From assembly GCA_038150265.1 (NCBI GenBank), contig JAYOTF010000004.1, forward strand, positions 70,760 through 134,759: DNA of 64,000 bases, given 5' to 3'. The notes below the pieces were generated by a model. The model made no database searches. It was not told the origin of the DNA and worked only from the letters and a program-made list of their open reading frames with translations. Source of the DNA: Deltaproteobacteria bacterium (lineage in GTDB: Bacteria; SAR324; NAC60-12). The translations under genes were made by a program, and so were the position numbers. Of this stretch, positions 15,111 to 39,419 are shown piece by piece. Each line of letters begins with the position of its first letter. Position 1 is the first letter of the stretch.

Positions 15111-15140
15111 GCGATCTCCTGACACAAAAGTTAGCGAGAG

Positions 15141-25844: not shown

Positions 25845-26165
25845 ATGGACTCCATCAGAGAAACCCGAGTCTTGCGTGAAAACACGCTGGTCCTTTCGGT
25901 TCCGGAAGAATTTCTGCTGGCTGAAGTGGAAATCATCATCCAGAAACTGTCCCGTGGCGCTGAGACTCAATCCGAACGGGACTCCTACTCCAAACTCCTG
26001 GCGCGCCTGCATCGGCGCAAGGCCTACGGCACTCTCCACCCGCGGGTGAAGCTCGATGGAATGAGCCTGATCCTGCTGGAGAAGGACTTCTTCTCCGACA
26101 TCCCGGAAGGAGTGCAAGAAGCGGTTGAGGAACAAGTCAGCCGCCGAGCCGTGGCTCCCAGTTAG
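25845..26165 (+). CDS. Hypothetical protein (106 aa)
   Basis: ORF fills the gap between the MBL gene and the convergent epimerase gene; plausible codon usage. Confidence 0.6.
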   Translation: MDSIRETRVLRENTLVLSVPEEFLLAEVEIIIQKLSRGAETQSERDSYSKLLARLHRRKAYGTLHPRVKLDGMSLILLEKDFFSDIPEGVQEAVEEQVSRRAVAPS

Positions 26166-27223
26166 GAGAAGGTCACCCCCAGCCCAGGTTGCTCCAGGGG
26201 GCGGAGGATTCCGTCCTCAAGGAGGTACCCTCCCTGGGCCGGATCTCGGGTTAGGTCGAGGTCCCCATCCAGGTCCAGGTACCGCGTGTTCGGACACGCC
26301 AACGCCTGATGCAGCGCCGCAGCCAGGCTGGTTCGGCTTTCGTCATTGCACCCCCACATCAGATCAATCCCTGACACGGCCGCCAGGTGCGCAATGCGCC
26401 GGGCTGGCTCCAGGCCCCCGCACTTCATCAGCTTGATGTTGAAGGTGCCACAGTAGGGCTCCGGATACCCGTAACGCAGCGCGTCGGCCTCGGACTTCAG
26501 GCTTTCGTCAAGGGCAAGGTGCTGCCGCTGCTCCGGAGTCAGCTCCCGGAGGGCTTCGGTATCAGACACCTTCAGGGGCTGCTCCACAAACTCCAACCGC
26601 AACGCCTCCCGCTGGTCCAGCAGCTTCCGGAGTTCAGCCAAGCCGTAGCCCTGGTTGGGATCCACCCGCAGGACGGTGTCTGCCGGCAGATCCTCCCGGA
26701 GCTTCGCCAGCCGTTCCAGGTCTTCTTCCAGGCTCTTCCCCAACTTGACCTTGAGCACCGAAAATCCCTGGGCGCGTTTTTCGGCCGCTTCCTTCAGGGT
26801 CTCGTCCAGAGTCCGAAGCCCCAGGGTGTTCGAGGTGGGCAGAGCCTGATGCGCGCGCCCCAGCATTTCAACCAGGGGGACGTCCAGCCGCCGGGCCAGG
26901 AGGTCGTGAAGGGCCATGTCCGCGGCTGCCAGGGCTGCGGGATTGGCCTGAAGCTGCTCCTGAAGCGGGCGGAGCAGGCGGGGGAGGTGCCGGATGTCTT
27001 CGCCCTCCAGGGCCTGAAGCTGCTCCAGGGCTGCCGCACAGGACGCATCGGTCTCGCCCGTGACGTGCTCTCCGGGAGACGCCGAGCCGCAGCCCAGGAC
27101 GTGCCCCTCGGCCTCCAGCTCCAGGAAGTGCAGCGTGACGTCCTCGCTGGTGTTGTAGGAAATGCTAAAGGGCTGGGTCAACCGGATGGTCTCTTGCCAC
27201 ACGCGAACACGCTTCAGCTTCAT
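26162..27223 (-). CDS. Enolase-superfamily dipeptide epimerase / N-acyl amino acid racemase (DgcA-like)
   Basis: KVKLG, RVDPNQG, EQP, LDES, NIKLMKCGGL, MWGCNDES, DLDG. Confidence 0.88.
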   Translation of the reverse strand: MKLKRVRVWQETIRLTQPFSISYNTSEDVTLHFLELEAEGHVLGCGSASPGEHVTGETDASCAAALEQLQALEGEDIRHLPRLLRPLQEQLQANPAALAAADMALHDLLARRLDVPLVEMLGRAHQALPTSNTLGLRTLDETLKEAAEKRAQGFSVLKVKLGKSLEEDLERLAKLREDLPADTVLRVDPNQGYGLAELRKLLDQREALRLEFVEQPLKVSDTEALRELTPEQRQHLALDESLKSEADALRYGYPEPYCGTFNIKLMKCGGLEPARRIAHLAAVSGIDLMWGCNDESRTSLAAALHQALACPNTRYLDLDGDLDLTRDPAQGGYLLEDGILRPLEQPGLGVTFS

Positions 27224-28287
27224 CGGGTCTGCTCCTCTTGAATGAAGGTTTGGATGAGCGGAATCAGGGCCTCAACCCCGTGTTCCTTGGGCAGCATCAC
27301 CGGCACGCCCAGGCGCTCCTCATGTTCCCCCCGCAGGCCTTCCGCTTCCTTCGGGTTGAGGCACTCCGTGCTGAGCGTCACCGCCAGGGTCCGGGAGCCG
27401 TACAGGCGAATCAGCTCCAGGTCGTCCTTGACGTCCGGAATCGGCAGCTCCGCGGCCTGAGCCCGGAAGACGGTCCGCCCCGGCGCATGCTGCAGAATCA
27501 CCCCCCGGGCCATCGCCGAGCACAGGTACTCCGAGCCGCAGGGGCCTGACGGGTTGCGCAGCGACGACTGGCCTTCAAGCAGAATCAGGTCCGGACTCCG
27601 CTCCCGGTCGCACTGCACCACGGCATGCTCCAACTCGCCGGAGACAAAATCATTCGGAGTTGAATCGAAGATGAAGCCGTAGTCGTGTCCGGACTGCATC
27701 CACCCGGTTTGCCCCGTGAAGATCATCTCCGTCCGGATGCCTGCCGCATTGCAGGCTTCCCAGAGCCAGCGGGTGGTGGTGCGCTTCCCAACGGCACAGT
27801 CGGTTCCCAAAATGGCCAGACGCGGCGCCTTGACCTGTGTGATCTCTCCGGTCCAGAAGTGGAGGTCCATCTTGGAGCGAGGCTTGCGGATGTCGAGCAG
27901 CGTCACCTGCTTGCGGGCGGCAGCTTCCACGAGGTGCGGCTTGTCCGAGAGGAACTCGTGCAGGCCGTTCACCACTCCCAGCCCCTGTTCAATGGCCTCT
28001 TCAATGACACTGAGCAGCTCCGGAAGCAGCTTGCCGCCTGACGTCGTGATGCCCACAATCGCCACCTCCGGCGGCGCTGCAGACTGCTGACAGGCCTCGG
28101 CCACGGACGCAAACACCGGAATGCCGCGCGGGGTTCCATCGACCACCGTGCCTGCGTCTTCTCCCGCCTGATCGGGATCCACCACCCCGACAATCCGGAA
28201 ACGATCACTGCCCCGGACCAGACCAAAAGCGGTTTTGGCACGATCAAAGTTAAAGGTCTGGGGAGCCAGCACCAACGCATTTTGCAT
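27220..28287 (-). CDS. DUF1611 family protein (DgcN-like N-acetyltransferase)
   Basis: KTAFGLVR, GLHEFL, GTDCAVGKRTT, TGQTG, DFVSGELE, EGQSSL. Confidence 0.88.
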   Translation of the reverse strand: MQNALVLAPQTFNFDRAKTAFGLVRGSDRFRIVGVVDPDQAGEDAGTVVDGTPRGIPVFASVAEACQQSAAPPEVAIVGITTSGGKLLPELLSVIEEAIEQGLGVVNGLHEFLSDKPHLVEAAARKQVTLLDIRKPRSKMDLHFWTGEITQVKAPRLAILGTDCAVGKRTTTRWLWEACNAAGIRTEMIFTGQTGWMQSGHDYGFIFDSTPNDFVSGELEHAVVQCDRERSPDLILLEGQSSLRNPSGPCGSEYLCSAMARGVILQHAPGRTVFRAQAAELPIPDVKDDLELIRLYGSRTLAVTLSTECLNPKEAEGLRGEHEERLGVPVMLPKEHGVEALIPLIQTFIQEEQTR

Positions 28288-28324
28288 GGAAAATCCTCTG
28301 TAAGACGGAAAAAGCGAAGGGCTC

Positions 28325-29347
28325 TCAGACGCCGGAGAACCCGTTAAGGAAGTGAATCAGGTTGGGGCCCAGGGCCTCTGACAGGTAGCCTCCTTCCTGA
28401 ACCAGCACCGTCGGGAGACGCAGTTGCCCCAGGCAGGCGCCCATCTGCTCGAACCCCGGAGTCGTCACCGCGAGCCCGGCCAGCGGGTCGCTTTCATGGG
28501 CGTCGAGCCCCAGCGCCACGACCAACGCATCGGGGGCAAAGGCCGCCACCCGCGCCAGAGCCTTGTCAAGGGCCTTCAGGTAGCCGGAATCCGCGGTGCC
28601 GCGTGGCAGGGGGACATTCAGGTTGAAGCCTTCTCCGGCACCTGTGCCACGCTCCTGAGCATGCCCCCAGTAAAAGGGATAAAACCGGGCCGGATCGGCG
28701 TGTAGCGAGACGGTGAGGACATCAGAGCGGTCGTAAAAGATGCTCTGAGTCCCGTTACCGTGGTGAAGGTCGACATCCACAATCGCCACCCGTCCCAGTT
28801 GGTTCCGGAGGAACTGAGCCGCAATGGCGGTGTTGTTGAGGTAACAGAATCCGCCCGCCATGTCGGCATGCGCGTGGTGTCCGGGAGGACGGCAGAGGGC
28901 ATACGCGGCCGCCTGGGTCTCCAGAACCTGTGCGGCCGCCGCCACGGCCGTGTTCGCACTCGCCTGCACCGAAGCCCAGGTGTGGGCGCCAATCGGGCAC
29001 GCCGTGTCAAAGAGGTGCCACCCCGCCTGCCCCACAGCAGAGTCCGGATAGCCCAGGCCCTGACGGTTCGGGTGGATGTTCGGGATGACCTCCGCCGATC
29101 CGGAGTCAATGTACTGCCAACGCCGGTAGATGTGTTCGAGGAACTGGAGGTACTCCGCTGTATGAACCGCCGCAACCGGGCCCCGGCCAAAGGCTTCAGG
29201 CGTCCGGACCTCATGACCGTTCGCCTGCAGCGCCTGATGCAGGGCGTTGGCACGAGCGGCGACTTCCGGATTGGGCTGCGGGGCGCCGCTGGAGAGGAAA
29301 AACTGAGGCTCATGCTGAAGCTGAGCGGCATCAAAGTACGCGATCAT
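28325..29347 (-). CDS. Histone-deacetylase-family amidohydrolase (acetylpolyamine amidohydrolase-like)
   Basis: RPPGHHA, GGFCYLNN, DVDLHHGNGTQ, GLDAHESDP, QEGGY. Confidence 0.92.
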   Translation of the reverse strand: MIAYFDAAQLQHEPQFFLSSGAPQPNPEVAARANALHQALQANGHEVRTPEAFGRGPVAAVHTAEYLQFLEHIYRRWQYIDSGSAEVIPNIHPNRQGLGYPDSAVGQAGWHLFDTACPIGAHTWASVQASANTAVAAAAQVLETQAAAYALCRPPGHHAHADMAGGFCYLNNTAIAAQFLRNQLGRVAIVDVDLHHGNGTQSIFYDRSDVLTVSLHADPARFYPFYWGHAQERGTGAGEGFNLNVPLPRGTADSGYLKALDKALARVAAFAPDALVVALGLDAHESDPLAGLAVTTPGFEQMGACLGQLRLPTVLVQEGGYLSEALGPNLIHFLNGFSGV

Positions 29348-29353
29348 GGTGTC

Positions 29354-30286
29354 CTACAGGTTGACCTGAGCCTGCCCCTTGAGGGCAAGGAGCTCGCGGG
29401 CCTCGTCGGGCGTGGCCACTTCCAGCGAAAGGCGTTCCAGAATTTCCCGGATGCGCTGCACCTGCGCCGCATTGTTGGGCGCCAGCTGTCCCTTGCCCAG
29501 GTAGAGGCTGTCTTCGAGTCCCACCCGGACGCTTCCCCCCAGCGTTGCCGCGTTGGTGATCATGCCCATCTGGTGCCGTCCGGCGGCCAGCACAGAAAAC
29601 CGGTAGTGGTCGCCAAAGAGCTTGTCTGCGGTTTCCTTCATGTGCACCAGGTGCGCGGGATCGGGACCAATTCCTCCCAGGACTCCAAAGATGAACTGAA
29701 CAAACAGCGGCCCCTTCACCAGCCCTCGGTCCCAGAAGTGCTTGAGGTTGTAGAGGTGCCCCACGTCGTAGCACTCAAACTCGAAGCGCGCGCCTCGCTT
29801 CTCCCCCAGCTCATGGAGGATGAACTCGATGTCCTTGAAGGTATTCCGGAAGACAAAGTCACGGGTGTCTTCCAGAAACTGAGGCTCCCAGTCGTGCTTC
29901 CAGTCCTGAAAGCGCTCAAGCGCGGGAAAGAGTCCAAAGTTGATGGAGCCCATGTTGAGTGAGCACATTTCCGGACACACCTGCAACGGAGCCTGCAGGC
30001 GTTCCTCAACGGACATGTACTGCCCGCCGCCGGTGGTGATGTTAATGACCGCGTTGGTGTTCTGGTGAATGGTGGGCAGGAACTGCAGAAACACCTCCGG
30101 ATCGGGAGTGGGAGCCCCGTTTTCCGGATTGCGGGCATGCAGGTGCAGGATGGCGGCACCGGCCTCTGCTGCAGCAATGGCCTGCTCGGCAATCTCCTCC
30201 GGCGTCACCGGCAGGTGGGGGCTCATGCTGGGAGTGTGAATGGAGCCCGTGACCGCACAGGTGATGATGACTTTCTTTTGAGGCAT
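29354..30286 (-). CDS. Beta-keto acid cleavage enzyme (BKACE/DUF849, Kce family)
   Basis: IITCAVTG, AGAAILHLHAR, TTGG, SLNMGS, FEFECYD, VRVGLEDSLY. Confidence 0.92.
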   Translation of the reverse strand: MPQKKVIITCAVTGSIHTPSMSPHLPVTPEEIAEQAIAAAEAGAAILHLHARNPENGAPTPDPEVFLQFLPTIHQNTNAVINITTGGGQYMSVEERLQAPLQVCPEMCSLNMGSINFGLFPALERFQDWKHDWEPQFLEDTRDFVFRNTFKDIEFILHELGEKRGARFEFECYDVGHLYNLKHFWDRGLVKGPLFVQFIFGVLGGIGPDPAHLVHMKETADKLFGDHYRFSVLAAGRHQMGMITNAATLGGSVRVGLEDSLYLGKGQLAPNNAAQVQRIREILERLSLEVATPDEARELLALKGQAQVNL

Positions 30287-30301
30287 GAACAGGCTCCGCA
30301 A

Positions 30302-31651
30302 TCAAGAGGTGGGCAACGCGCGCTCTTCGGCAAAGCGCAGGAGCGTCCGGTGCAGTTTGTCGAGCAGCTCCCCCACCTCCGCATCGCTGATGCAGAGCGG
30401 TGGGCAGACCATCAGGTGGTCTCCGGAGTATCCTCCGCGAGTGCGACGTGAGTAGAGGATCAGCTGCTCCTCATAGGCCAGTTCCACCACCCGAGCGTGG
30501 GCATTCCACTCCGGAGGCAGCACCTCCCAGGTTTCCGGGTTGGCCACCAGCTCAAACGCCAGCAGCAGGCCCTTGCCCCGCACATCTCCGATGAAGGGAA
30601 AGCGCTGCTGAAGCGCCAGCAGGCCTTCCCGGAGTTGAGCGCCCTGCTGCGTGGCCTGGGCCATCAGGTTTTCTTCCAGCATGACCTCCAGAACGGCTTT
30701 TCCGGCAGCACAGGCCAGTGGGTTGCCCGCGTAGGTGTAGCCATGCATGAAGCCCCCATCGTCCAGCACGTCCTCAACACAGTCCTCTCGGGCAACGACC
30801 GCTCCCAGCGGGCAGTACCCTGCCGCGAGCCCCTTGGCCAGGGCCACCAGATCGGCTTGCACGCCCCAGTGTGAGAGCCCGAGGTACTCGCCCGTCCGGC
30901 CTGCTCCGCACAGGACCTCGTCTGCAATCAGGAAGAGGCCATACTTATCACAGATTTCCCGGACTCGGGGGTAGTACGATTCCGGAGCCACCAGCGCCCC
31001 GGTGGTCGCGCCACCGACGGGCTCAGCGAGGAAGGCCAGCACGGTCTCTGGGCCCTGGGCCTGAATTTCCTGCTCCAGCAGATTCGCGTAACGGAGCCCC
31101 CGCTCTTCCCAGCTCAGGTCGTCCTGATCTCGATAGGCCGTTGGCGCCGGAATCTGCGGCATGCGCTGGTACATCGGTGTGAAGGGGTCGTTCAGTGGTC
31201 CATAACTGGTTGCCCCCAGGAGGCCCAGGGTGCAGCCATGATAAGACGGACTGAGGGAGATCACCTTGTAACGGCTGCCTTGCCCCCGGGCCAGGGCGAT
31301 CTGCCGAGCCAGTTTGAGGCAGGACTCAACCGTCTCTGAGCCTCCGGAGGCAAAGAAGACGCGGTTGAGGGCAGGAGGCATGACGGCAGAGAGCTGTTCC
31401 GCAAACTCTTCCGCGGCATCATTCTCAAAGTGGAGCCGGTAGGCAAAGGCGGCTTCACGGAGTTGAGCCTCCATGGCGGCAATGACCTTCGGGTGACTGT
31501 GCCCAATGTTGGAGACCATTGCCCCGGAGGAGCCGTCGAGGTAGCGGTTTCCCGCCTGATCCCAGAGGTAGACGCCTTGGGAGCGGGAGACACGGGGCTT
31601 GTGGTTGCGGGATTGATAAAACAGGTGGGACGTCTTCAGAGACGAAGACAT
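30302..31651 (-). CDS. Class-III PLP-dependent aminotransferase
   Basis: YLDGSSGA, SGGSE, SYHG, AEPVGG, LIADEVLCGAGRTG, LAKGLAAGY, HGYTY. GGAGG RBS. Confidence 0.92.
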   Translation of the reverse strand: MSSSLKTSHLFYQSRNHKPRVSRSQGVYLWDQAGNRYLDGSSGAMVSNIGHSHPKVIAAMEAQLREAAFAYRLHFENDAAEEFAEQLSAVMPPALNRVFFASGGSETVESCLKLARQIALARGQGSRYKVISLSPSYHGCTLGLLGATSYGPLNDPFTPMYQRMPQIPAPTAYRDQDDLSWEERGLRYANLLEQEIQAQGPETVLAFLAEPVGGATTGALVAPESYYPRVREICDKYGLFLIADEVLCGAGRTGEYLGLSHWGVQADLVALAKGLAAGYCPLGAVVAREDCVEDVLDDGGFMHGYTYAGNPLACAAGKAVLEVMLEENLMAQATQQGAQLREGLLALQQRFPFIGDVRGKGLLLAFELVANPETWEVLPPEWNAHARVVELAYEEQLILYSRRTRGGYSGDHLMVCPPLCISDAEVGELLDKLHRTLLRFAEERALPTS

Positions 31652-31685
31652 GGGGACCTCCAGTAGGAGAAAGGTGTTTAGCGAA

Positions 31686-32417
31686 TCAATCCCCGACCCA
31701 GAATGCCTGCTCCAGATCGGTGAAGTCAGAAGCGGGACCTTCAAATTTATTGCGCCCAAGCTCAAGGACGTAGACGTAATCGGCAATCTTGAGCGCATGC
31801 CGGATTTCCTGATCCACGAGCAGGATCGTCAGCTGATCCTCTGTGGCCAGCATCTTCAGCATGTCATAGACTTCCTCAGCGAGCATCTTCGAAAGCCCGG
31901 CAGTGGGCTCATCCACAAGCAGCACCTTCGGATCGGCCATGAGCGTGCGGCTGATCTCCACCATGCGCTGCTGTCCGCCCGAAAGCTCGCCGGTCACCTG
32001 ACGGCGCTTCTCCTTGAGGATGGGAAAGCGTTCGTAGTTGATCTCGATCTTTTCCCGAACCTGCTTCTTGTCACTCCGGAAGGTCCAGCCTCCGAGCTCC
32101 AGGTTCTCCTCAACGGTCATGTCCTTGAAGACCCCTGGTTGCTGCGGAATGTACGCCAGCCCCTTGAGGATGCGCTGATGGGTGGGAACGTCCAAGATGC
32201 TTTCACCGTCCAGGAGGATCTCTCCGCCGTTGGGGCGCAGGAAGCCGAAGGCAGCCTTGAGGGCCGTGGACTTGCCCACTCCGTTGGCTCCGAGGATGGT
32301 GGTGATGCTCCGGGGACGGGCCACGACGCTGAGATCCTGGAGGATGTTCAGGTCGCGGTAGTATCCCACGTAAAGGTTCTGGATTTCAAGAACAGCGTCA
32401 ACGGTGCGTTGCATCAC
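31686..32417 (-). CDS. HAAT (Liv-type) ABC transporter ATP-binding subunit, LivF-like
   Basis: GANGVGKST, LSGGQQRM, LLVDEPTAGL. Confidence 0.92.
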   Translation of the reverse strand: MMQRTVDAVLEIQNLYVGYYRDLNILQDLSVVARPRSITTILGANGVGKSTALKAAFGFLRPNGGEILLDGESILDVPTHQRILKGLAYIPQQPGVFKDMTVEENLELGGWTFRSDKKQVREKIEINYERFPILKEKRRQVTGELSGGQQRMVEISRTLMADPKVLLVDEPTAGLSKMLAEEVYDMLKMLATEDQLTILLVDQEIRHALKIADYVYVLELGRNKFEGPASDFTDLEQAFWVGD

Positions 32418-33187
32418 TCCTGTGTTGGCGAAGAGGTGGAAGAGCGGGACGCGGCAGGCTCATCGTCCTCGTCGCTGCCGAGGTAGGCCTCAATGACGGC
32501 CGGATCCTTCTTGACGTCCTCCGGGGTTCCATCGGCGATCAGGTCTCCGTAATTCAGCACCAGCAACCGGTTGCACAAGGAAAAGATCGAGTCCATCTGG
32601 TGGCTGATCAGAATGATCGCCTTGCCTGCGTCATTCACACGCCGGATGTACCCGTAGATGACCTCCATGAGCTTGGGGTGCACCCCGGCAAAGGGCTCAT
32701 CGAGGATGATGATGTCCGGATCCAGCATCAGCAGGCGTCCCAGCTCCAGGAGCTTCTGCTGCCCCCCGGAGAGGGCCTGCGCGTACTCGTTGCGCAGGTG
32801 GTCAATCGTCAGGAACTCCAGCACCTCCATCGCCTTGGGCAGCACCTCGTCCTTTCCCACCGTGAGGTCCTTGGCCAAGGCTGGAACGTAGAGGTTCTCC
32901 AGCACCGTCATCCTCCGGAAGGAGCGAGTCACCTGAAAGGTCCGGCCGAGTCCGGCTCGGGCGACTTCAAACGGGGCCAGCTGGTCAATGCGTTCGCCAT
33001 TGAGGTACACGGTCCCGCTACTGGGCTTGATGGCCCCGTCGAGGATGTTGGTCAGGGTCGTCTTCCCCGCACCGTTCGGACCAATCAGGCCAATCATTTC
33101 CGGGCCCTTGACGTCGAAGGAGACGCCCTTGAGGACATTGAGGCCGCCGAAGCGCTTCTTTAGGTTTTTGACCGAAAGTTCAATCAT
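32414..33187 (-). CDS. HAAT ABC transporter ATP-binding subunit, LivG-like
   Basis: GPNGAGKTT, GRTFQ, LSGGQQK, LDEPFAG, VIEAYLG. Confidence 0.92.
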   Translation of the reverse strand: MIELSVKNLKKRFGGLNVLKGVSFDVKGPEMIGLIGPNGAGKTTLTNILDGAIKPSSGTVYLNGERIDQLAPFEVARAGLGRTFQVTRSFRRMTVLENLYVPALAKDLTVGKDEVLPKAMEVLEFLTIDHLRNEYAQALSGGQQKLLELGRLLMLDPDIIILDEPFAGVHPKLMEVIYGYIRRVNDAGKAIILISHQMDSIFSLCNRLLVLNYGDLIADGTPEDVKKDPAVIEAYLGSDEDDEPAASRSSTSSPTQE

Positions 33188-34398
33188 GACGGCACCGAAG
33201 TCGACGAGGTGTCCCGCTGTCGCTTGGCAACGGTTTCCGAGGCCACATGCGCTCGGGTGAAGTACTCAATGATGGGCGTGATGAGTCCGTTCCGGTAGAA
33301 GCGCAGGGTGACCATCAGCAGCACTCCGAAGAACACCAGCCGCCAGAGCGTCATGTCGATTTCCACGCCGCCAATGACAAAGCTGTTCCGGAGCATCTCC
33401 AGGATGAACTCAATGATGATCGCCCCAATGGCCGCTGCCGCAAAGTTTTCCAGCCCGCCAATGACGGCCATGGCCACCACGAGGCTCATTTGCAGGATGA
33501 TGAGGTTGTTGGGCGTGATGATGCCAATGTAGTGGGCCTGCACGGCGCCCGCCAGGGCCGCCATCATGGAGGTGATCACAAAGACCAGAATCTTGTACCG
33601 GATCGTGTTGATGCCCAGCGCCGCGGCGGCGTCTTCATCTTCCCGGAGGGCCCGGACAAACAGGCCAAACCGCGAATGGGCGAGCCACGCCAGCACCCCC
33701 AGGCACGCCAGGAGCAAGAAGAACATCACAAAGTAGGGCGGAATCTTGTCTGTCTGGCTGAACTCATGCCCAAACCAGGTGACGCCCCCTTCAAACAGCT
33801 GCGGCAGTTCAATGCCGGCTTGCCCCCGGGTGATGTCGATCTCGGCGCTGATGGCCGCCCGGAGGATTTCGGAGAAGCCCAGGGTAAACAGCGCCAGATA
33901 CGCCGCGCGCAAGCGGAGCACGAGCAAACCGATCAGCAGGCCAAACAGGCCTCCGATCACCGTGCCCAGGAGGATGCCCAACCAGAGGGGCATCGTCGTG
34001 ATCTCCACCGTTCCCCCCCACGCGTCCATGGCCTTGGTCAGGCAGTCCTGCGCCAGGGTGCTGGACGTCACCCCCACCGCATCCTTGATGATGAGGTACT
34101 GGTCGCCAAACGCGTACTCGGTGCAGAGGTTCGTCGGCTCCGGAGACAGGAAGAAGTAGTTGCTGAACAGCGCCGTTCCGTACGCCCCCAGCCCCATGAA
34201 CCCCATGTGCCCAAAGGAAAACTGCCCACCGTATCCGGCCAGCATCGACCAGCTGGACGCCAGAATGGCGTAAAAGAAGCCGGTGATGCAGATGTGCATG
34301 ATGTAGTCATAGTCCCGCCCCCCATACATGAAGGGGAAGAGGAAGAAAAAGGCAACCAGGCCGATGCTGATCAACCAGAGCGTTTGCTGTCGGGTCAT
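33184..34398 (-). CDS. HAAT ABC transporter permease, LivM-like
   Basis: GYGGQFSFGH..F.GLGAY, LRLRAAYLALFTLGFSE, ALREDEDAAAALGI. Confidence 0.92.
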   Translation of the reverse strand: MTRQQTLWLISIGLVAFFFLFPFMYGGRDYDYIMHICITGFFYAILASSWSMLAGYGGQFSFGHMGFMGLGAYGTALFSNYFFLSPEPTNLCTEYAFGDQYLIIKDAVGVTSSTLAQDCLTKAMDAWGGTVEITTMPLWLGILLGTVIGGLFGLLIGLLVLRLRAAYLALFTLGFSEILRAAISAEIDITRGQAGIELPQLFEGGVTWFGHEFSQTDKIPPYFVMFFLLLACLGVLAWLAHSRFGLFVRALREDEDAAAALGINTIRYKILVFVITSMMAALAGAVQAHYIGIITPNNLIILQMSLVVAMAVIGGLENFAAAAIGAIIIEFILEMLRNSFVIGGVEIDMTLWRLVFFGVLLMVTLRFYRNGLITPIIEYFTRAHVASETVAKRQRDTSSTSVPS

Positions 34399-35663
34399 AC
34401 TTTTCCGTGCGTTCCGCTGGCAAAACGACGTCCCATCAGACCGGTAGGACGCAGCAGCAGGGTCAGGGTCAGGACGATCATGCCATAGGCAGGAATGTAG
34501 GAAGACGCTTTCTGGGGGTCCGGAATGCAGCCGGTGCCCGCGGCCTCAACGAGTCCAATGATGATGCCGCCGAGGAAGGCGCCGGGCAACGAGCCCAGGC
34601 CACCGAGGACCACAATCACGAATGAGCGCATCGCCGGGATCATTCCCACTTGAGGCAACCACGAGAACGCCTGCACGAGGGTGGCGCCAGAGAGGCCGGC
34701 GATCATCCCGCCCATGGCAAAGGCCAGCATGTTCATCCGGTGCGGGTTGATGCCCGCAATCGCAGCCGCTTCTCGGTCCTGACTCACGGCCCGCAGGGCC
34801 TTTCCCGTCCAGGTCTTGTAGAGGAAGAAGAGCAGCGCCAGCAGCACCAGGATGGAGATGACGGCGGCAATGAAGCGTGGGTTGGAGATCGAGATCGTGT
34901 CAAAGAGTTCCATGTTCCCCCGGCTGGTCTTCAGCAGCCACGGGTCTTCCTTCGAGGGCAGACGCAGGCGCGGAAAGTCCACAAAGCGCCGGGCCTTGAC
35001 CGGGTTGGAGCCGGCCACGGCCTGCACAAAGTACTGCAGCGTGAAGGCCAGTCCGAAGGTGACCAGAATCCCGTACTCCACCGGGCGCTCAATGCGTCCA
35101 TCGTACATGGGCGTCAGGAAGAGGCGCTCAAACAGGGCTCCCAGCATGAAGGTGCCCGCGCAGGCGATGATGATCGCCAGGAAGGGAGAGAGGCCGGGAA
35201 TCCAGACGACAGAGACATAATAGGTGAGCATGCCCCCGATCATGTAAAACTCGCCGTGGGAGAAACTGACGATGCCTAAAATCGAGAAAATCAGGGTCAG
35301 GCCCAGGGCCATCAATCCGTAGATGATGCCAATGATCAGGCCATTGGTAAACTGGGAGAGGACGAATGAGCCGTTGGCCACGCAGTTGTTCTGCGGGTCA
35401 GCCATCGCAAAAGCCACCATCAGGATCCCCACAATCATCAGGGACGGGATGGCAATCAGGCGGGTTGAGCTTTCCGGAGTCTTCTGCCAGAGCGGGACCA
35501 GCCCAATGGGTCCAAGCGCCGCGCCGATCAGCGACCCCATGAGCACAGCATTGGACGTGTCGAGGTCCTTCCTGAGGTAGATCCGACGCGTTCCATAGCT
35601 TCCTACAACTCCCCAAAACACAAGCCAGAGGGTTGTCCACCAGAAGATGGAAGAGTATTCCAT
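34395..35663 (-). CDS. HAAT ABC transporter permease, LivH-like, with an N-terminal membrane extension
   Basis: YGLMALGLTLIFSILGIVSFSHGEFYM, GKALRAVSQDREAA, VVLGGLGS, RPTGLMG. Confidence 0.9.
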   Translation of the reverse strand: MEYSSIFWWTTLWLVFWGVVGSYGTRRIYLRKDLDTSNAVLMGSLIGAALGPIGLVPLWQKTPESSTRLIAIPSLMIVGILMVAFAMADPQNNCVANGSFVLSQFTNGLIIGIIYGLMALGLTLIFSILGIVSFSHGEFYMIGGMLTYYVSVVWIPGLSPFLAIIIACAGTFMLGALFERLFLTPMYDGRIERPVEYGILVTFGLAFTLQYFVQAVAGSNPVKARRFVDFPRLRLPSKEDPWLLKTSRGNMELFDTISISNPRFIAAVISILVLLALLFFLYKTWTGKALRAVSQDREAAAIAGINPHRMNMLAFAMGGMIAGLSGATLVQAFSWLPQVGMIPAMRSFVIVVLGGLGSLPGAFLGGIIIGLVEAAGTGCIPDPQKASSYIPAYGMIVLTLTLLLRPTGLMGRRFASGTHGKV

Positions 35664-35747
35664 TGCACCAATACGTGAGGAGTGATGGGAAGGGAAGTAG
35701 CAGGACAGGAGCGTGGCAACTCCAGGAGCCACCACGCCGAACGATCC

Positions 35748-36989
35748 TTAATCGACGTACTTGGGCTCGCCCGTTTTGTACGCGTCCGGATAGACAATGG
35801 TCATGCCGCTGGAGGCCTCACCTTCCACCTGGTACTGGACCATGGTGATGGCGACGTCGGGCCACTGGTGCCACCACTCGTCCCCCTTGCCGTCAGCAGA
35901 CGGATCCTTTTGGGTGCCATACGGGAAGTAGATGCGACCCAGCACCCCTTCGTAGGAGACGTTTTCCAACGCCTTCACAATGGCATCTCCGTTGGTGGAG
36001 CCGGCGTCGTTGATGGCTTGGGCCAGCACGCCCACCGAGTCGTAAGCTTCCAGTGCGTAGCTCTCCACCCCCGTCTTGCCGGTCTGGGACTTGTAGTCCG
36101 CGGCAAACTTCTTGGCGCGGGCGTTGTACATGCTTTCCGGAATGCCGATCCGGGCCATGAACGCCATGTTGCCGTCTGGGACGTTTTCCCACCAGGCCTT
36201 ACTTTCAAGGCCCGCCTGGTTCGCGTGGAACTTGATGTCCATCGGTCCAATGCCGGCATCCGCCGCCTGCTGCGTGAAGTTGTAGCCGGCTTCTCCGGTC
36301 AGGAGCACGATCACGTAGTCCGGATCCTCCGCCTTCACCCGCTCCACGATTCCCGCAAAGTCCTGGGTGCCGATGTCCACACCAAAGGTGACCGACTCAA
36401 TCCCGCGGCCGCCCAGTCCCTGCTCGCACTCCTTCGCAGCAGGAATGCCGTAGTCGGTATTTTCGGTCACGATCGTCACCTTCTTCACACCCGGGGCCTG
36501 TGCCGCAAACTGCCAGATCACTCCAGATGCCCAGGAGCTCAGAGGGGCAATGCGGAAGATGTACTTCTGCTTGTCCCCGGTGATGGTGTCGTTCCAGGTC
36601 TCAGCAAAAACCACGGGAATGCCTCGGGCGTTGGCCACATCCTTCGAGGCCACGCCAACGGAGCTGTGGTAGCCCCCGGCAACGCCAATCACCCCTTCTT
36701 GCGTGATCAGCTTTTCCATCATGGCGGTCGCCTTCTCGGGCAGCCCTTCGGTGTCGGTCATCACCACCTTCAGGTCGCACCCCAGCACGCCTCCAGCTGC
36801 GTTGATGTCTCGCTCAGCCAGCATCATGGCGTCTCGCATGGCTTCCCCTCCGGTCACCGATCCCGGAGCCGAAAGAGGCGCCAGGCCGCCGATCTTGTGA
36901 ACACAATCTGCCGCCCAGGTCGGGGCAAAAGAGACCAGGCTGAACGAGGCTGCCAGCAGCCATCGAAAGGCACGGTTCTTATTCCTCAT
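35748..36989 (-). CDS. HAAT ABC transporter substrate-binding protein (LivK-like)
   Basis: Signal peptide; IGGLAPLSAPG, INAAGGVLG, GGYHSSV, FRIAP, AYDSV. AAAGGAG RBS. Confidence 0.9.
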   Translation of the reverse strand: MRNKNRAFRWLLAASFSLVSFAPTWAADCVHKIGGLAPLSAPGSVTGGEAMRDAMMLAERDINAAGGVLGCDLKVVMTDTEGLPEKATAMMEKLITQEGVIGVAGGYHSSVGVASKDVANARGIPVVFAETWNDTITGDKQKYIFRIAPLSSWASGVIWQFAAQAPGVKKVTIVTENTDYGIPAAKECEQGLGGRGIESVTFGVDIGTQDFAGIVERVKAEDPDYVIVLLTGEAGYNFTQQAADAGIGPMDIKFHANQAGLESKAWWENVPDGNMAFMARIGIPESMYNARAKKFAADYKSQTGKTGVESYALEAYDSVGVLAQAINDAGSTNGDAIVKALENVSYEGVLGRIYFPYGTQKDPSADGKGDEWWHQWPDVAITMVQYQVEGEASSGMTIVYPDAYKTGEPKYVD

Positions 36990-37236
36990 AAGATGCTCCT
37001 TTACATGAATTAGCGATCAGGGGGCTTCTCCGGACGCGTCCACGCCCGAGTGAAGAAGCAACACACCCGAATGAACCAGAACGGACTTCCGGGTAGCTCA
37101 AAAAGTGACAGCGGAAGGTTTCGTTTCATTCGAAGGGCACCACCTTAGGCAGATCCCCCCTGGCACGCTATTACATTTGCGACACAATTTTGTATCTTTC
37201 CCCAAATTTCAGAGAAAATTTCCCGACCCTTTACGT

Positions 37237-37249
37237 TAAATTACTGATT
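37237..37249 (-). promoter_or_regulatory. Possible IHF-binding site in an AT-rich divergent promoter region
   Basis: Minus strand AATCAG-taat-TTA matches WATCAR-N4-TTR. Confidence 0.3.
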
Positions 37250-37428
37250 TGTTTTACAGAACAATCGCTGCATCCTTCCCCCCGTGTCAGGAATCGGGCC
37301 CAAAAATATTTTTTTGAGCAATCCGCTCAAGTTTTCCGGAGCGGTGCCGATAAGGGAGCTAAGGTTTTCTGCAGTTGGGGCACGGACGCCCCGGCTGGTT
37401 TTTGGAACGTCCTCAAGAGGAGACGATC

Positions 37429-37626
37429 ATGTACCTGCAAAATCTCGACGCCGCCCTGCAAAGCCAAGTGCAGTCCAAGGATTTTGAACAGCGCGTCAAC
37501 CGCGCCGTCCAGTCCTTCCTCTATGATCTGGATTTCATGATGATGGAGGAACAGCACACGGGAACGCGGGCCAAGTTCTCATTTGAGCGCCCGGTGACCA
37601 CCGCGGATTGGCTGATTCCCGCCTAA
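37429..37626 (+). CDS. Small hypothetical protein (65 aa)
   Basis: Strong RBS AAGAGGAG upstream of ATG 37429; GC3-type codons; followed by a hairpin. Confidence 0.65.
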   Translation: MYLQNLDAALQSQVQSKDFEQRVNRAVQSFLYDLDFMMMEEQHTGTRAKFSFERPVTTADWLIPA

Positions 37627-37636
37627 GGTGGGGGGT

Positions 37637-37665
37637 TCCGCTCCTGAGGACGCCTCAGGAGTGGA
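37637..37665. terminator. Hairpin between convergent genes
   Basis: TCCGCTCCTGAGG-acg-CCTCAGGAGTGGA forms a 13-bp stem. Confidence 0.55.
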
Positions 37666-39187: not shown

Positions 39188-39419
39188 CCGCAATCACTTC
39201 GGTTTGATCGCCCCAGCAGCCAAAGTGACCCGGGGAAGGTGAGAGAATCCGTTTTGGGAATTCTTGAATAACGCTAACCACTTCAGACTGCAAGCGCAGC
39301 CTTGCTTCGCTGATAAATCATTGCATCCGCATTTAGTGATTTGATTCTTGAGCTTTGGCCCAAATCCTGTGATGATGGCGTTTTCTTTTCACTGCCATTT
39401 CAGAATCAACGGAGTCCGT

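What the first reader, a model, noticed from the sequence alone, without database searches (positions are those of the whole stretch)
28325..36989. Candidate uptake and catabolism operon for N6-acetyl-beta-lysine or a related N-acetylated beta-amino acid
Seen: contiguous HAAT ABC transporter (5 genes), class-III aminotransferase, BKACE and HDAC-family deacetylase, with gaps of 34, 15 and 6 nt from livF onward. Established: class-III enzymes transaminate beta/omega-amines, and BKACE enzymes cleave 3-keto acids with acetyl-CoA. The biochemically described Pseudomonas beta-lysine route is N6-acetyl-beta-lysine transaminase (EC 2.6.1.65), then 3-keto-6-acetamidohexanoate cleavage, then 4-acetamidobutyryl-CoA deacetylase (EC 3.5.1.51). 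N6-acetyl-beta-lysine is an osmolyte of methanogens and some bacteria. Inference: the three enzymes map one-to-one onto this pathway and may supply genes for activities that, to my knowledge, are poorly linked to sequences, together with a scavenging transporter.
Basis: partly seen in the sequence, partly recalled or inferred. Interest (0 to 1): 0.75.

Follow-up and report, generated by a model that had tools for sequence, protein, structure and literature searches.

The report
Candidate beta-lysine breakdown gene cluster
An uncultured coastal bacterium carries a ten-gene operon whose enzyme set, which recurs in many soil and marine bacteria, fits an old biochemical route for breaking down beta-lysine or its acetylated form, a route whose genes appear never to have been identified.

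Summary
Five HAAT ABC-transporter genes, a class-III aminotransferase (AT), a BKACE and an HDAC-family deacetylase lie head to tail on the minus strand, with the stated gaps of 34, 15 and 6 nt.

The operon runs two genes further: a DUF1611 protein (DgcN-like N-acetyltransferase family) and an enolase-superfamily racemase-like protein.

- Among 70 untruncated loci holding an ortholog of the deacetylase, 68 have the AT and 53 the BKACE.
Its nearest solved relatives are thialysine and diamine N-epsilon-acetyltransferases.
- Some loci add an acyl-CoA thioesterase.

These are the activities I recall for Barker's Pseudomonas route: acetylate, transaminate, cleave with acetyl-CoA, then de-esterify and deacetylate.

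The deacetylase is an acetylpolyamine-amidohydrolase relative. It has lost both acidic residues that hold polyamine amines. The BKACE belongs to the neutral beta-ketohexanoate subgroup.

Against a simple reading:
- The HAAT transporter is specific to the SAR324 lineage.
- Related operons there lack the BKACE, the AT or both.
- No substrate was tested.

Most likely this is a catabolic module for beta-lysine or N6-acetyl-beta-lysine (about 0.5). It is a new gene assignment on known chemistry.

The parts
35748..36989 (-). HAAT-family periplasmic substrate-binding protein (413 aa)
   Evidence: Matches Peripla_BP_6 at 5e-55. All NCBIfam equivalogs (LivJ-type, UrtA) score far below their cut-offs. 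The best solved relative is the 3ip5 group, an amino-acid binding protein, at 9e-22. Orthologs of 71-97% identity occur in 15 of 88 genomes of the class, G000 included, always in family f1.
34395..35735 (-). ABC permease, LivH/UrtB-like (446 aa with the GTG start; the start is uncertain)
   Evidence: Matches BPD_transp_2 at 1e-44 over residues 130-427. It lies 12 nt after the SBP gene.
33184..34398 (-). ABC permease, LivM/UrtC-like (404 aa)
   Evidence: Matches BPD_transp_2 at 7e-45. It overlaps the preceding gene by 4 nt.
32414..33187 (-). ABC ATPase, LivG-like (257 aa)
   Evidence: Matches ABC_tran and BCA_ABC_TP_C. It overlaps the preceding gene by 4 nt.
31686..32417 (-). ABC ATPase, LivF/UrtE-like (243 aa)
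   Evidence: Matches ABC_tran at 2e-30. It overlaps the preceding gene by 4 nt.
30302..31651 (-). Class-III (omega/beta-amine) aminotransferase, 449 aa; proposed N6-acetyl-beta-lysine transaminase
   Evidence: Matches Aminotran_3 at 4e-94 over profile positions 5-403 of 403. The best NCBIfam model, PRK07483, scores 422 bits, below its 485 cut-off. The best solved relative is 3i4j at 8e-94, and SpuC-type polyamine transaminases score lower. The nearest paralog in the own genome is only 32-34% identical. Orthologs of 49-65% identity sit next to the deacetylase in 68 of 70 loci.
29354..30286 (-). BKACE (beta-keto acid cleavage enzyme), 310 aa; proposed 3-keto-6-acetamidohexanoate:acetyl-CoA cleavage enzyme
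   Evidence: Matches PF05853 at 3e-108. Scores 529 bits on NF053538, above the 430 cut-off. It is the only BKACE in the genome. The alignment to 8rio (P. denitrificans BKACE15) keeps the FEFECYD glutamate (E171) and the VRVGLED arginine (R254).
28325..29347 (-). HDAC-fold amidohydrolase of the acetylpolyamine-amidohydrolase (cluster 4) lineage, 340 aa; proposed deacetylase of 4-acetamidobutyrate or its CoA ester (or of N6-acetyl-beta-lysine)
   Evidence: Matches Hist_deacetyl at 1e-78. The best solved relatives are APAHs: 3men at 9e-98, 9gkz at 4e-90 and 6phr. RPPGHH and EGGY motifs are present. MrApaH E106 and E117 align to V105 and A116, and the PIS motif reads PLA.
27220..28287 (-). DUF1611 protein (DgcN-like N-acetyltransferase family), 355 aa; candidate stand-in for the GNAT of related clusters
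   Evidence: Matches DUF1611_N and DUF1611. Scores 133 bits on NF041892 (DgcN), far below the 480 cut-off. A 69%-identical ortholog follows the AT directly in genus g10. In the SAR324 loci examined, DUF1611 and GNAT never occur together.
26162..27223 (-). Enolase-superfamily (MR_MLE) racemase/epimerase-like protein, 353 aa; role unresolved
   Evidence: Matches MR_MLE_C and MR_MLE_N. Its best NCBIfam models all score below cut-off: Ala-Glu epimerase 165 vs 500, and DgcA 146 vs 400. It overlaps DUF1611 by 4 nt. It was found only in the window's own genus and in L002.
36990..37654 (-). 665-nt upstream non-coding region with an AT-rich stretch; presumed promoter and control region
   Evidence: Read directly from the sequence. 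The consensus scan found no sigma-70-like site here. No regulator gene lies adjacent, whereas relatives carry LysR- or AraC-type regulators.

Best explanation
The ten-gene operon takes up a beta,omega-diamino acid and degrades it. The substrate is most likely L-beta-lysine (3,6-diaminohexanoate), its N6-acetyl derivative, or both.

Proposed steps, all inferred:
1. The HAAT ABC system imports the compound.
2. If the compound is not already acetylated, an acetyl-CoA-dependent acetyltransferase caps the distal amine. Here that is the DUF1611 protein; in most relatives it is an SSAT/thialysine-type GNAT.
3. The class-III aminotransferase converts the 3-amino group to a 3-keto group, giving 3-keto-6-acetamidohexanoate.
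4. The BKACE cleaves this with acetyl-CoA into acetoacetate and 4-acetamidobutyryl-CoA.
5. The thioester is hydrolysed. Some relatives carry a thioesterase for this; none was found here.
6. The APAH-like amidohydrolase removes the acetyl group, giving 4-aminobutyrate and acetate.

The chemical reason for the acetyl cap is my inference. A free 6-amine would cyclise onto the 3-keto group or onto the thioester.

What is shown: the gene families, their order, their intact catalytic motifs and their co-occurrence across lineages. What is inferred: the substrate and every reaction.
For: **1. Conserved core.** I examined 80 loci chosen only for a deacetylase ortholog (60-86% identity, the best 80 of 565 relatives).
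- 70 have enough flank to judge. Of these, 68 have the AT, 53 the BKACE and 62 a GNAT.
- 48 have all three, 14 have AT+GNAT, 5 have AT+BKACE, 1 has the AT only and 2 have none.
- Carriers span at least ten families of Alphaproteobacteria, two gammaproteobacterial MAGs, SAR324, and one record each labelled Bacteroidota and Betaproteobacteria.

**2. The GNAT.** Its nearest solved relatives are thialysine N-epsilon-acetyltransferase (2.6e-17) and diamine acetyltransferases SSAT2 and SSAT1. These enzymes acetylate a distal amine on an alkyl chain.

**3. The thioesterase.** A 4HBT thioesterase occurs in or beside 16 of the 70 clusters. It matches the C-terminal part of the carnitine-dehydrogenase model. 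As I recall, that part hydrolyses the CoA product in the BKACE-based carnitine route. One plasmid record holds transporter, AT, BKACE, GNAT, deacetylase, LysR and thioesterase in 8.4 kb.

**4. The BKACE.** It passes NF053538. P. denitrificans BKACE15 is about 64% identical (my rough reading of the alignment). It accepts neutral C5-C6 beta-keto acids (PMC11961710, passage).

**5. The deacetylase.** It keeps the RPPGHH and EGGY motifs. It has Val and Ala where MrApaH uses E106 and E117 towards polyamine amines. Across sequences, Val stands at the first position in 86 of 89 orthologs and Ala or Ser at the second in 89 of 89. The four paralogs keep Asp or Glu in 4 of 4 and 3 of 4. This argues against a canonical polyamine substrate.

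**6. DUF1611 as the acetyltransferase.** Within SAR324, loci carry either a GNAT or DUF1611, never both. The own genome has no ortholog of the cluster GNAT.

**7. Source of the substrate.** The own genome (97.8% complete) has no lysine 2,3-aminomutase family gene, although the control search rang in 8 of 14 reference genomes. Any beta-lysine skeleton would therefore come from outside, which fits the importer.

**8. Habitat.** Near-identical DNA lies in estuary, salt-marsh and mangrove runs. As I recall, methanogens in such sediments use N-epsilon-acetyl-beta-lysine as an osmolyte.
Against: - No enzyme or binding protein was assayed. No solved or characterised ortholog exists for the AT, the deacetylase or the SBP.
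- **Transporter.** It is lineage-specific. Its close orthologs in sister genera sit in operons without a BKACE: genus g10 has transporter-AT-DUF1611, and G027 has transporter-deacetylase-GNAT. The imported compound can therefore apparently be handled without a cis BKACE.
- **BKACE missing from some clusters.** 14 of 70 clusters lack it, although 5 of 5 such genomes tested have an NF053538 BKACE elsewhere.
- **BKACE phylogeny.** In the tree the window's BKACE groups with SAR324 and database BKACEs of other contexts (next to SDR or 3-hydroxyacyl-CoA-dehydrogenase genes). It does not group with the 51 alphaproteobacterial in-cluster enzymes. The basal split is weak, at support 66. The enzyme may have been recruited from a generalist.
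- **Deacetylase orthologs elsewhere.** In SAR324 they also occur alone or with unrelated neighbours.
- **No thioesterase here.** No ortholog was found in the window or its genome.
- **MR_MLE.** This gene has no role in the scheme.
- **GNAT.** The cluster GNATs did not match the AblB beta-lysine acetyltransferase model at 1e-5 (that such a model is in the library is my recollection).
- **No aminomutase nearby.** Lysine 2,3-aminomutase genes are not next to the cluster in any of 5 carrier genomes checked; 2 of the 5 have one elsewhere.
- **Possible terminator.** A terminator-like hairpin overlaps the deacetylase stop codon. The scan found no more such sites than shuffled sequence gives.
Confidence: 0.5

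Rival explanations
1. The chemical logic is the same (cap a distal amine with acetyl, transaminate a beta-amine, cleave by BKACE, uncap), but the substrate is another beta,omega-diamino or N-acetylated beta-amino acid. Candidates are 3,5-diaminohexanoate, 3,5-diaminopentanoate, or a compound released from a larger amide by the DMFA2_C-like protein of Mesorhizobium clusters.
For: All the comparative evidence defines a substrate class, not a compound. BKACE15-type enzymes accept 5-substituted C6 keto acids (PMC11961710 passage). 50 of 70 loci carry a 740-aa DMFA2_C-like putative amidase between the transporter and the AT, which hints at a conjugated precursor in rhizobia. Transporter types differ between lineages.
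Against: As far as I recall, beta-lysine is the only natural compound for which all four activities have been shown biochemically in one pathway. Also from recall, 3,5-diaminohexanoate is known only as an intermediate of anaerobic lysine fermentation.
Confidence: 0.2
2. The operon handles acetylated diamines or polyamines such as N-acetylputrescine or N-acetylcadaverine. The APAH-type enzyme and the acetyltransferase set the acetylation state. The AT converts the free amine to an aldehyde. The BKACE is an unrelated or downstream passenger.
For: The deacetylase's best solved relatives are acetylpolyamine amidohydrolases, and the GNAT's are diamine acetyltransferases. SpuC-type polyamine transaminases are among the AT's solved relatives at about 1e-73. 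Several relatives use PotD/PotA-type transporters. Operons with AT, acetyltransferase and deacetylase but no BKACE exist: 14 of 70 loci, and genus g10. In g10 the linked deacetylase is the paralog that keeps the canonical acidic residues.
Against: The BKACE sits between the AT and the GNAT or deacetylase in 53 of 70 loci, with gaps of a few bases. This is hard to explain for a passenger, because a BKACE needs a beta-keto acid and diamines cannot give one. The ortholog group has lost both polyamine-binding acidic residues and the PIS motif. No aldehyde dehydrogenase was seen in the clusters annotated. HAAT and LAO-type binding proteins usually bind carboxylate-bearing ligands (general knowledge).
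Confidence: 0.12
3. The last three genes form a D-amino-acid conversion unit of the DgcN/DgcA type. DUF1611 acetylates a D-amino acid, the MR_MLE enzyme racemises the N-acetyl form, and the HDAC-fold enzyme deacetylates it to the L-form. The AT then feeds the L-form into metabolism.
For: DUF1611 and MR_MLE match the DgcN and DgcA models of NCBIfam at 9e-39 and 1.4e-42. They overlap by 4 nt. The DgcN-DgcA route for D-glutamate is mentioned in PMC10845958 (passage).
Against: Both scores are far below the model cut-offs: 133 vs 480 and 146 vs 400. The deacetylase's orthologs go with AT, BKACE and GNAT in 79 other loci, and with DUF1611/MR_MLE only in L002. Genus g10 has DUF1611 without MR_MLE. 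The scheme gives the BKACE no role.
Confidence: 0.07

Closest known systems
L-beta-lysine catabolic pathway of Pseudomonas B4 (Barker laboratory, 1970s-1981). Its activities are beta-lysine N6-acetylation, N6-acetyl-beta-lysine transaminase (EC 2.6.1.65), 3-keto-6-acetamidohexanoate cleavage with acetyl-CoA, and a 4-acetamidobutyryl-CoA deacetylase-thiolesterase (EC 3.5.1.51). This is recalled; no paper was seen.
   Same: The set of activities needed matches the gene families in the conserved module one for one: acetyltransferase, beta-amine transaminase, acetyl-CoA-dependent beta-keto acid cleavage, thioesterase and deacetylase.
   Different: To my knowledge that pathway was described only as enzyme activities. 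No sequence link was found in ten searches of the held library. No Pseudomonas locus was among the 80 examined. The window lacks the GNAT and the thioesterase, and adds DUF1611 and MR_MLE.
BKACE family: Kce of lysine fermentation and the screened BKACE collection, including P. denitrificans BKACE15 (PDB 8RIO, 8RIP, 9HNF)
   Same: Same fold and family. The window's enzyme passes PF05853 and NF053538 and keeps E171 and R254. Acetyl-CoA-dependent cleavage to acetoacetate plus an acyl-CoA is the family reaction (PMC11961710 passages).
   Different: The physiological substrate of this subgroup is unknown; the paper says so for BKACE15. Here the keto acid would come from a transaminase, not from a dehydrogenase as in the SDR- or 3HCDH-linked relatives and, from recall, in the carnitine and lysine-fermentation routes.
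Bacterial acetylpolyamine amidohydrolases (cluster 4 classical deacylases: M. ramosa ApaH, P. aeruginosa PA1409/PA0321, Pseudomonas sp. ApaH 9GKZ)
   Same: They are the best solved relatives, at about 1e-68 to 1e-98. The RPPGHH and EGGY motifs are conserved (PMC11532494 section 16).
   Different: MrApaH E106 and E117 are Val and Ala here, and the PIS motif is PLA. This holds across 89 orthologs, while the paralogs keep the canonical residues. The group is therefore a separate subfamily with a probably different, less cationic substrate.
Carnitine catabolism: carnitine dehydrogenase, dehydrocarnitine-cleaving BKACE and betainyl-CoA thioesterase (recalled)
   Same: The logic is the same: transporter, an enzyme that makes a beta-keto acid, a BKACE, then a thioesterase. 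The cluster thioesterase matches the C-terminal part of the carnitine-dehydrogenase model.
   Different: The keto acid is made by a transaminase, and an acetyltransferase/deacetylase pair is present.

Membership tests
BKACE (PF05853; NCBIfam NF053538 subgroup) | Full-length match above the curated cut-offs | tested here: met
   PF05853 scores 361.6 bits against a cut-off of 24.8, over positions 1-274 of 274. NF053538 scores 529.4 bits against a cut-off of 430.
BKACE (PF05853; NCBIfam NF053538 subgroup) | Catalytic glutamate E171 and arginine R254 (BKACE15 numbering), and the HLH / GLED metal-site motifs | tested here: met
   The HMMER alignment to 8rio shows FEFECYD, VRVGLED and LHLHAR conserved. 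The residue roles come from PMC11961710. The assignment of the metal-site motifs is my recollection of the Kce structure.
BKACE (PF05853; NCBIfam NF053538 subgroup) | Acetyl-CoA-dependent cleavage of a beta-keto acid; which one | not testable with these tools
   Needs an enzyme assay.
Acetylpolyamine amidohydrolase (cluster 4 classical deacylases) | RPPGHH and XGGY motifs on an HDAC fold | tested here: met
   CRPPGHHAH and QEGGY are present. Hist_deacetyl matches at 1e-78.
Acetylpolyamine amidohydrolase (cluster 4 classical deacylases) | Acidic residue at the end of the L2 loop (MrApaH E106) that salt-bridges a polyamine amine; I recalled a second acidic residue, E117 | tested here: not met
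   Both align to V105 and A116. In 89 orthologs the first is Val in 86 and the second is Ala in 72 and Ser in 17. Paralogs have Asp or Glu in 4 of 4 and 3 of 4. The role of E106 comes from PMC11532494. The role of E117 is recalled.
Acetylpolyamine amidohydrolase (cluster 4 classical deacylases) | PIS gatekeeper motif | tested here: not met
   The window reads PLA, and most orthologs read PFG (F in 77 of 89, G in 76 of 89). Paralogs read PIS or PMS.
Class-III aminotransferase (PF00202) | Full-length domain match | tested here: met
   315.9 bits over positions 5-403 of 403. No NCBIfam equivalog reached its cut-off.
HAAT (LivJHMGF-type) ABC importer | Type-I binding protein, two BPD_transp_2 permeases and two ATPases in one operon | tested here: met
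   Every named equivalog (LivJ, LivH, LivM, LivG, LivF and the Urt proteins) scores below its cut-off, so the ligand is unassigned.
Barker L-beta-lysine pathway (as a gene cluster) | An N6-acetyltransferase is present | tested here: inconclusive
   The window and its genome have no GNAT ortholog. DUF1611 is a candidate, supported by the DgcN family name and by its either/or distribution with the GNAT. Relatives have an SSAT-type GNAT in 62 of 70 loci.
Barker L-beta-lysine pathway (as a gene cluster) | A beta-amine transaminase, an acetyl-CoA-dependent cleavage enzyme and a deacetylase are encoded together | tested here: met
   Met at the family level only.
Barker L-beta-lysine pathway (as a gene cluster) | Activity on beta-lysine, N6-acetyl-beta-lysine, 3-keto-6-acetamidohexanoate and 4-acetamidobutyryl-CoA | not testable with these tools
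   Needs assays or growth tests.
DgcN/DgcA D-glutamate system | Scores above the equivalog cut-offs | tested here: not met
   DgcN scores 133.3 bits against a cut-off of 480. DgcA scores 146.1 bits against a cut-off of 400.

The most novel reading that the evidence does not exclude
The module of aminotransferase, BKACE, acetyltransferase and APAH-like deacetylase (with a thioesterase in some loci) is the missing genetic basis of the L-beta-lysine pathway worked out enzymatically about forty-five years ago. It would give sequences to at least three orphan activities: EC 2.6.1.65, the 3-keto-6-acetamidohexanoate cleavage enzyme, and EC 3.5.1.51/3.5.1.63. It would define a new specificity subfamily of HDAC-fold amidohydrolases. 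It would show DUF1611 as a non-homologous replacement for an SSAT-type acetyltransferase. In coastal sediments it would let SAR324 and marine Alphaproteobacteria consume N-epsilon-acetyl-beta-lysine, the methanogen osmolyte.
Probability: 0.35. Interest if true: 0.7.

Novelty: new variant of a known kind. Interest (0 to 1): 0.6.

Why it matters
If confirmed, enzyme activities known only from protein fractions would get genes, and thousands of proteins now annotated as '3-keto-5-aminohexanoate cleavage protein', 'histone deacetylase family protein' and 'aspartate aminotransferase family protein' could be renamed.

It would add a physiological substrate to the largest BKACE subgroup, whose natural role is stated to be unknown (PMC11961710).

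It would separate a non-polyamine branch from the acetylpolyamine amidohydrolases.

It would point to a sink for beta-lysine-type compounds: osmolytes of methanogens and building blocks of streptothricin-type antibiotics (both recalled). The sinks would be in soils, rhizospheres and coastal sediments.

The test is cheap, because culturable carriers exist (Mesorhizobium, Shinella, Ancylobacter, Nitratireductor, Stappia).

Tried and rejected
- **Literature.** Ten full-text searches found no paper that links these genes to beta-lysine or acetyl-beta-lysine breakdown.
  - Bastard et al. 2014, the main BKACE paper, is not held. It and its supplements may bear on the novelty claim.
  - Two APAH structure papers were not held either.
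  - The NetSyn preprint on BKACE contexts has no occurrence of 'deacetylase', 'aminotransferase' or 'lysine' in its main text. Its supplements were not seen.
- **Earlier scan notes.** Nothing on this region or on look-alike sequences. One note describes an unrelated BKACE cluster.
- **Lysine 2,3-aminomutase.** I looked for one beside the cluster as direct support for beta-lysine. None was found in the own genome. Two of 5 carrier genomes have one, but it lies far from the cluster.
- **GNAT naming.** NCBIfam gave only weak generic matches, including streptothricin acetyltransferase at 7e-8. I did not use them.
- **Promoter and terminator scan.** It found no more sites than shuffled sequence gives, so it was not used as evidence. 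This includes the hairpin at the deacetylase stop.
- **BKACE tree.** I tested whether in-cluster BKACEs are one clade. They are not clearly so: 51 of 56 fall on one side of a weakly supported split (support 66), and the window's falls on the other. Only every third database hit (40 of 120) was included. The tree is a FastTree without an outgroup.
- **RNA evidence.** One salt-marsh metatranscriptome library holds short near-identical contigs on the SBP, a permease, the AT start and the BKACE. The tool warns that DNA can be present in such libraries and that contigs cannot show transcripts, so this is at most a hint. Parts without cover say nothing.
- **Histidine kinase.** The upstream kinase (37655-39193) was considered as a regulator. 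It is conserved next to the operon in L002 but was not seen upstream of the operon in L094, so I did not count it as part of the system.

Full report
**What is in the window**

- a type-I periplasmic binding protein (35748-36989)
- two BPD_transp_2 permeases (34395-35735 and 33184-34398)
- two ABC ATPases (32414-33187 and 31686-32417)
- a class-III aminotransferase (AT, 30302-31651)
- a BKACE (29354-30286)
- an HDAC-fold protein (28325-29347)

The block does not end there. After 37 nt comes a DUF1611 gene (27220-28287). Overlapping it by 4 nt is an enolase-superfamily MR_MLE gene (26162-27223). Beyond these the genes converge from the other strand.

Upstream lies a 665-nt non-coding region with an AT-rich stretch. 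No regulator gene is adjacent. Consensus scans for promoters and terminators gave no more sites than shuffled sequence.

I did not check that.

**The individual proteins**

*BKACE.* It is the only one in the genome. It passes the NCBIfam equivalog NF053538 at 529 bits against a cut-off of 430.
- Its solved relatives are 3e49, 3e02 and P. denitrificans BKACE15 (8rio).
- The alignment to 8rio keeps the catalytic E171 and R254.
[quoted passage not shown] Its physiological role is stated to be unknown (PMC11961710, passages).
- The window's enzyme therefore belongs to the subgroup that takes neutral C5-C6 keto acids.

*Deacetylase.* Its best solved relatives are acetylpolyamine amidohydrolases: 3men at 9e-98, 9gkz at 4e-90, then 6phr and 3q9b.
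- It keeps the RPPGHH and EGGY motifs that PMC11532494 (section 16) gives for cluster 4 polyamine deacetylases.
- I mapped residues by hand on the HMMER alignment to M. ramosa ApaH. E106, which that paper describes as salt-bridging a polyamine amine, aligns to V105.
- A second acidic residue, E117, whose role I only recall, aligns to A116. The PIS motif reads PLA.
- In an alignment of 93 sequences, the 89 orthologs (55% identity or more) have Val at the first position in 86 and Ala or Ser at the second in all 89. The motif is mostly PFG.
- The four paralogs (under 50% identity) have Asp or Glu in 4 of 4 and 3 of 4, and read PIS or PMS. One of them is the second copy in the window's own genome.
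- The window's enzyme thus belongs to a distinct branch that has lost the polyamine-holding residues.

*Aminotransferase.* It is a full-length class-III enzyme with no NCBIfam equivalog above cut-off. Its nearest solved relative is an uncharacterised Deinococcus protein.

*Binding protein.* It has no equivalog either. Its nearest solved relative is an amino-acid binding protein at 9e-22.

**Neighbourhood conservation**

A scan of one genome per species with the deacetylase found 565 relatives, of which the best 80 (60-86% identity) were kept with up to 10 kb of flank. I searched them by tblastn with the window's proteins and with proteins taken from the loci themselves. Nine loci were annotated with Pfam.

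Ten loci are cut too close to the deacetylase and were left out of the count: L003, L007, L013, L016, L023, L026, L051, L056, L063 and L070. What is visible in them is consistent with the rest.

In the other 70:

| Feature beside the deacetylase | Loci (of 70) |
|---|---|
| AT | 68 |
| BKACE | 53 |
| small GNAT | 62 |
| AT + BKACE + GNAT | 48 |
| AT + GNAT, no BKACE | 14 |
| AT + BKACE, no GNAT | 5 |
| AT only | 1 |
| none of the three | 2 |

Many of these loci are Mesorhizobium and so are not independent. Carriers nevertheless include:
- Pseudaminobacter, Nitratireductor, Shinella, Ciceribacter, Brucella, Ancylobacter, Rhodobium, Lutibaculum, Stappia and Sulfitobacter
- Kiloniellaceae and Rhodovibrionaceae
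- a Salinisphaerales MAG and another gammaproteobacterial MAG
- a record labelled Bacteroidota

All 5 genomes tested whose cluster lacks the BKACE have an NF053538 BKACE elsewhere.

**The extra genes in relatives**

*GNAT.* It lies between the BKACE and the deacetylase, or just after the deacetylase. Its nearest solved relatives are a thialysine N-epsilon-acetyltransferase (2.6e-17) and the diamine acetyltransferases SSAT2 and SSAT1. These enzymes acetylate a distal amine on an alkyl chain.

*Thioesterase.* A 4HBT thioesterase is in or near 16 of the 70 loci. It matches the C-terminal part of the carnitine-dehydrogenase model.

*One compact example.* An annotated plasmid record holds, in a row, an amino-acid ABC transporter, the AT, the BKACE, the GNAT, the deacetylase, a divergent LysR regulator and an acyl-CoA thioesterase.

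These are the activities I recall for the Barker laboratory's Pseudomonas B4 route: N6-acetylation of beta-lysine, transamination at C3, cleavage with acetyl-CoA to acetoacetate and 4-acetamidobutyryl-CoA, then thioester hydrolysis and deacetylation to 4-aminobutyrate.

The two 'ends' of the inferred substrate are read by different pairs of enzymes. An SSAT-type acetyltransferase and an APAH-type deacetylase handle a distal alkylamine. A beta-amine transaminase and a BKACE handle a beta-amino acid head. Beta-lysine has both.

**Variation inside the window's own lineage**

In the 88 genomes of the class:
- The full ten-gene order is kept in the two other genomes of the genus and in L002.
- In genus g10, a transporter 83-88% identical and an AT 77-80% identical are followed directly by DUF1611 (69% identical). 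There is no BKACE, deacetylase or MR_MLE between or after. A canonical APAH paralog, an AraC/DJ-1 regulator and an asparaginase II lie divergently upstream.
- In G027 the transporter (74-86% identical) is followed by the deacetylase ortholog and a GNAT, with no AT or BKACE.
- In G060 the transporter is followed by the BKACE, deacetylase fragments and a GNAT.

Loci with DUF1611 have no GNAT, and loci with a GNAT have no DUF1611. The window's genome has no ortholog of the cluster GNAT. NCBIfam names the DUF1611 family after the N-acetyltransferase DgcN, although the score here is far below the cut-off. I therefore read DUF1611 as the likely acetyltransferase of this operon. This is an inference.

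The same data cut the other way too. The transporter's ligand can evidently be processed by operons that lack a BKACE in cis, and deacetylase orthologs also occur alone or with unrelated neighbours.

Other NF053538 BKACEs of the class sit next to SDR or 3-hydroxyacyl-CoA-dehydrogenase genes. In a FastTree of 105 sequences the window's BKACE groups with those and with database hits, not with the 51 alphaproteobacterial in-cluster enzymes. The deciding split has only 66 support. The operon looks assembled from parts, with a generalist BKACE.

**Source of the substrate**

The genome is 97.8% complete and has no KamA-family lysine 2,3-aminomutase, while the same search rang in 8 of 14 control genomes. 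A beta-lysine skeleton would therefore have to be imported.

Near-identical DNA occurs in estuary runs, which may be the source sample. Short near-identical pieces occur in salt-marsh and mangrove runs. One salt-marsh RNA library holds short near-identical contigs on four genes of the operon. This is at most a hint of expression.

From recall, such sediments hold methanogens that accumulate N-epsilon-acetyl-beta-lysine.

**Verdict**

The most likely reading (about 0.5) is uptake and acetyl-protected breakdown of beta-lysine or N6-acetyl-beta-lysine.

| Reading | Odds |
|---|---|
| Beta-lysine or N6-acetyl-beta-lysine catabolism | about 0.5 |
| Same logic, another beta,omega-diamino acid | 0.2 |
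| Acetyl-diamine or polyamine catabolism with a passenger BKACE | 0.12 |
| DgcN/DgcA-like D-amino-acid unit using the deacetylase | 0.07 |

The polyamine reading is weakened by the BKACE's fixed place in the operon and by the lost acidic residues. The D-amino-acid reading is weakened by scores far below cut-off and by the deacetylase's partners elsewhere.

The MR_MLE gene is unexplained in every scheme.

I found nothing in the held literature that assigns genes to this pathway (ten searches, listed under Tried and rejected). The key BKACE paper of 2014 and its supplements could not be read, so the novelty claim carries that caveat.

Noticed in passing
window 26162-28287; L098:10725-11795; L099: DUF1611 (DgcN-like) follows the aminotransferase directly in a sister SAR324 genus, with no racemase after it. 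In the SAR324 loci examined it never co-occurs with the small GNAT. This suggests a non-homologous swap of acetyltransferases. The MR_MLE partner is found only in the window's own genus and in L002.
   Followed up: partly
L012:4933-7155 and 49 other loci (mostly Mesorhizobium): A 740-aa protein with an N,N-dimethylformamidase-beta-like C-terminal domain (PF20254) sits between the transporter genes and the aminotransferase in 50 of 70 clusters. It has no NCBIfam match. It may release the substrate from a larger amide.
   Followed up: no
L103 (Azospirillum brasilense Sp7 plasmid p2, NZ_CP012916.1 55282-74319): A 54%-identical deacetylase lies in a different cluster with no class-III aminotransferase. 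That cluster holds an ArgE/DapE deacylase, a peptide-type ABC transporter, a ketopantoate-reductase-like protein, a Zn hydrolase, the deacetylase, an acetolactate-synthase-like TPP enzyme and a BKACE. This is a second, unexplained pairing of an HDAC-fold enzyme with a BKACE.
   Followed up: no
L097:3843-5155 (G060): Between the BKACE and the GNAT, the deacetylase gene appears only as fragments. One is a 154-aa ORF matching the C-terminal part of the HDAC domain. The other is a 129-aa ORF with no family match. This is either a decayed gene or an assembly error.
   Followed up: no
L003, L004, L019, L025, L056, L062, L069, L070 (just after the deacetylase): In several marine and saline lineages a DAO-family FAD oxidoreductase follows the deacetylase, together with PotD/PotA-type transporters. 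Its role in the pathway is unknown.
   Followed up: no
window 28319-28342 (minus strand): A terminator-like hairpin followed by a T-run overlaps the stop codon of the deacetylase gene, before DUF1611. The scan found no excess of such sites over shuffled sequence, so its meaning is open.
   Followed up: no
L098:350-3814 versus window 14109-15125 and own contigs C35, C52: In genus g10 an asparaginase II, a canonical APAH paralog and an AraC/DJ-1-type regulator lie divergently next to the transporter operon. In the window's genome their orthologs (57-63% identity) are scattered over three places.
   Followed up: partly
window 37375-37626 (plus strand): A small ORF preceded by a GAGGAG-like ribosome-binding site lies between the operon's upstream region and the histidine-kinase gene. 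I read it off the sequence and did not search it against any family library.
   Followed up: no
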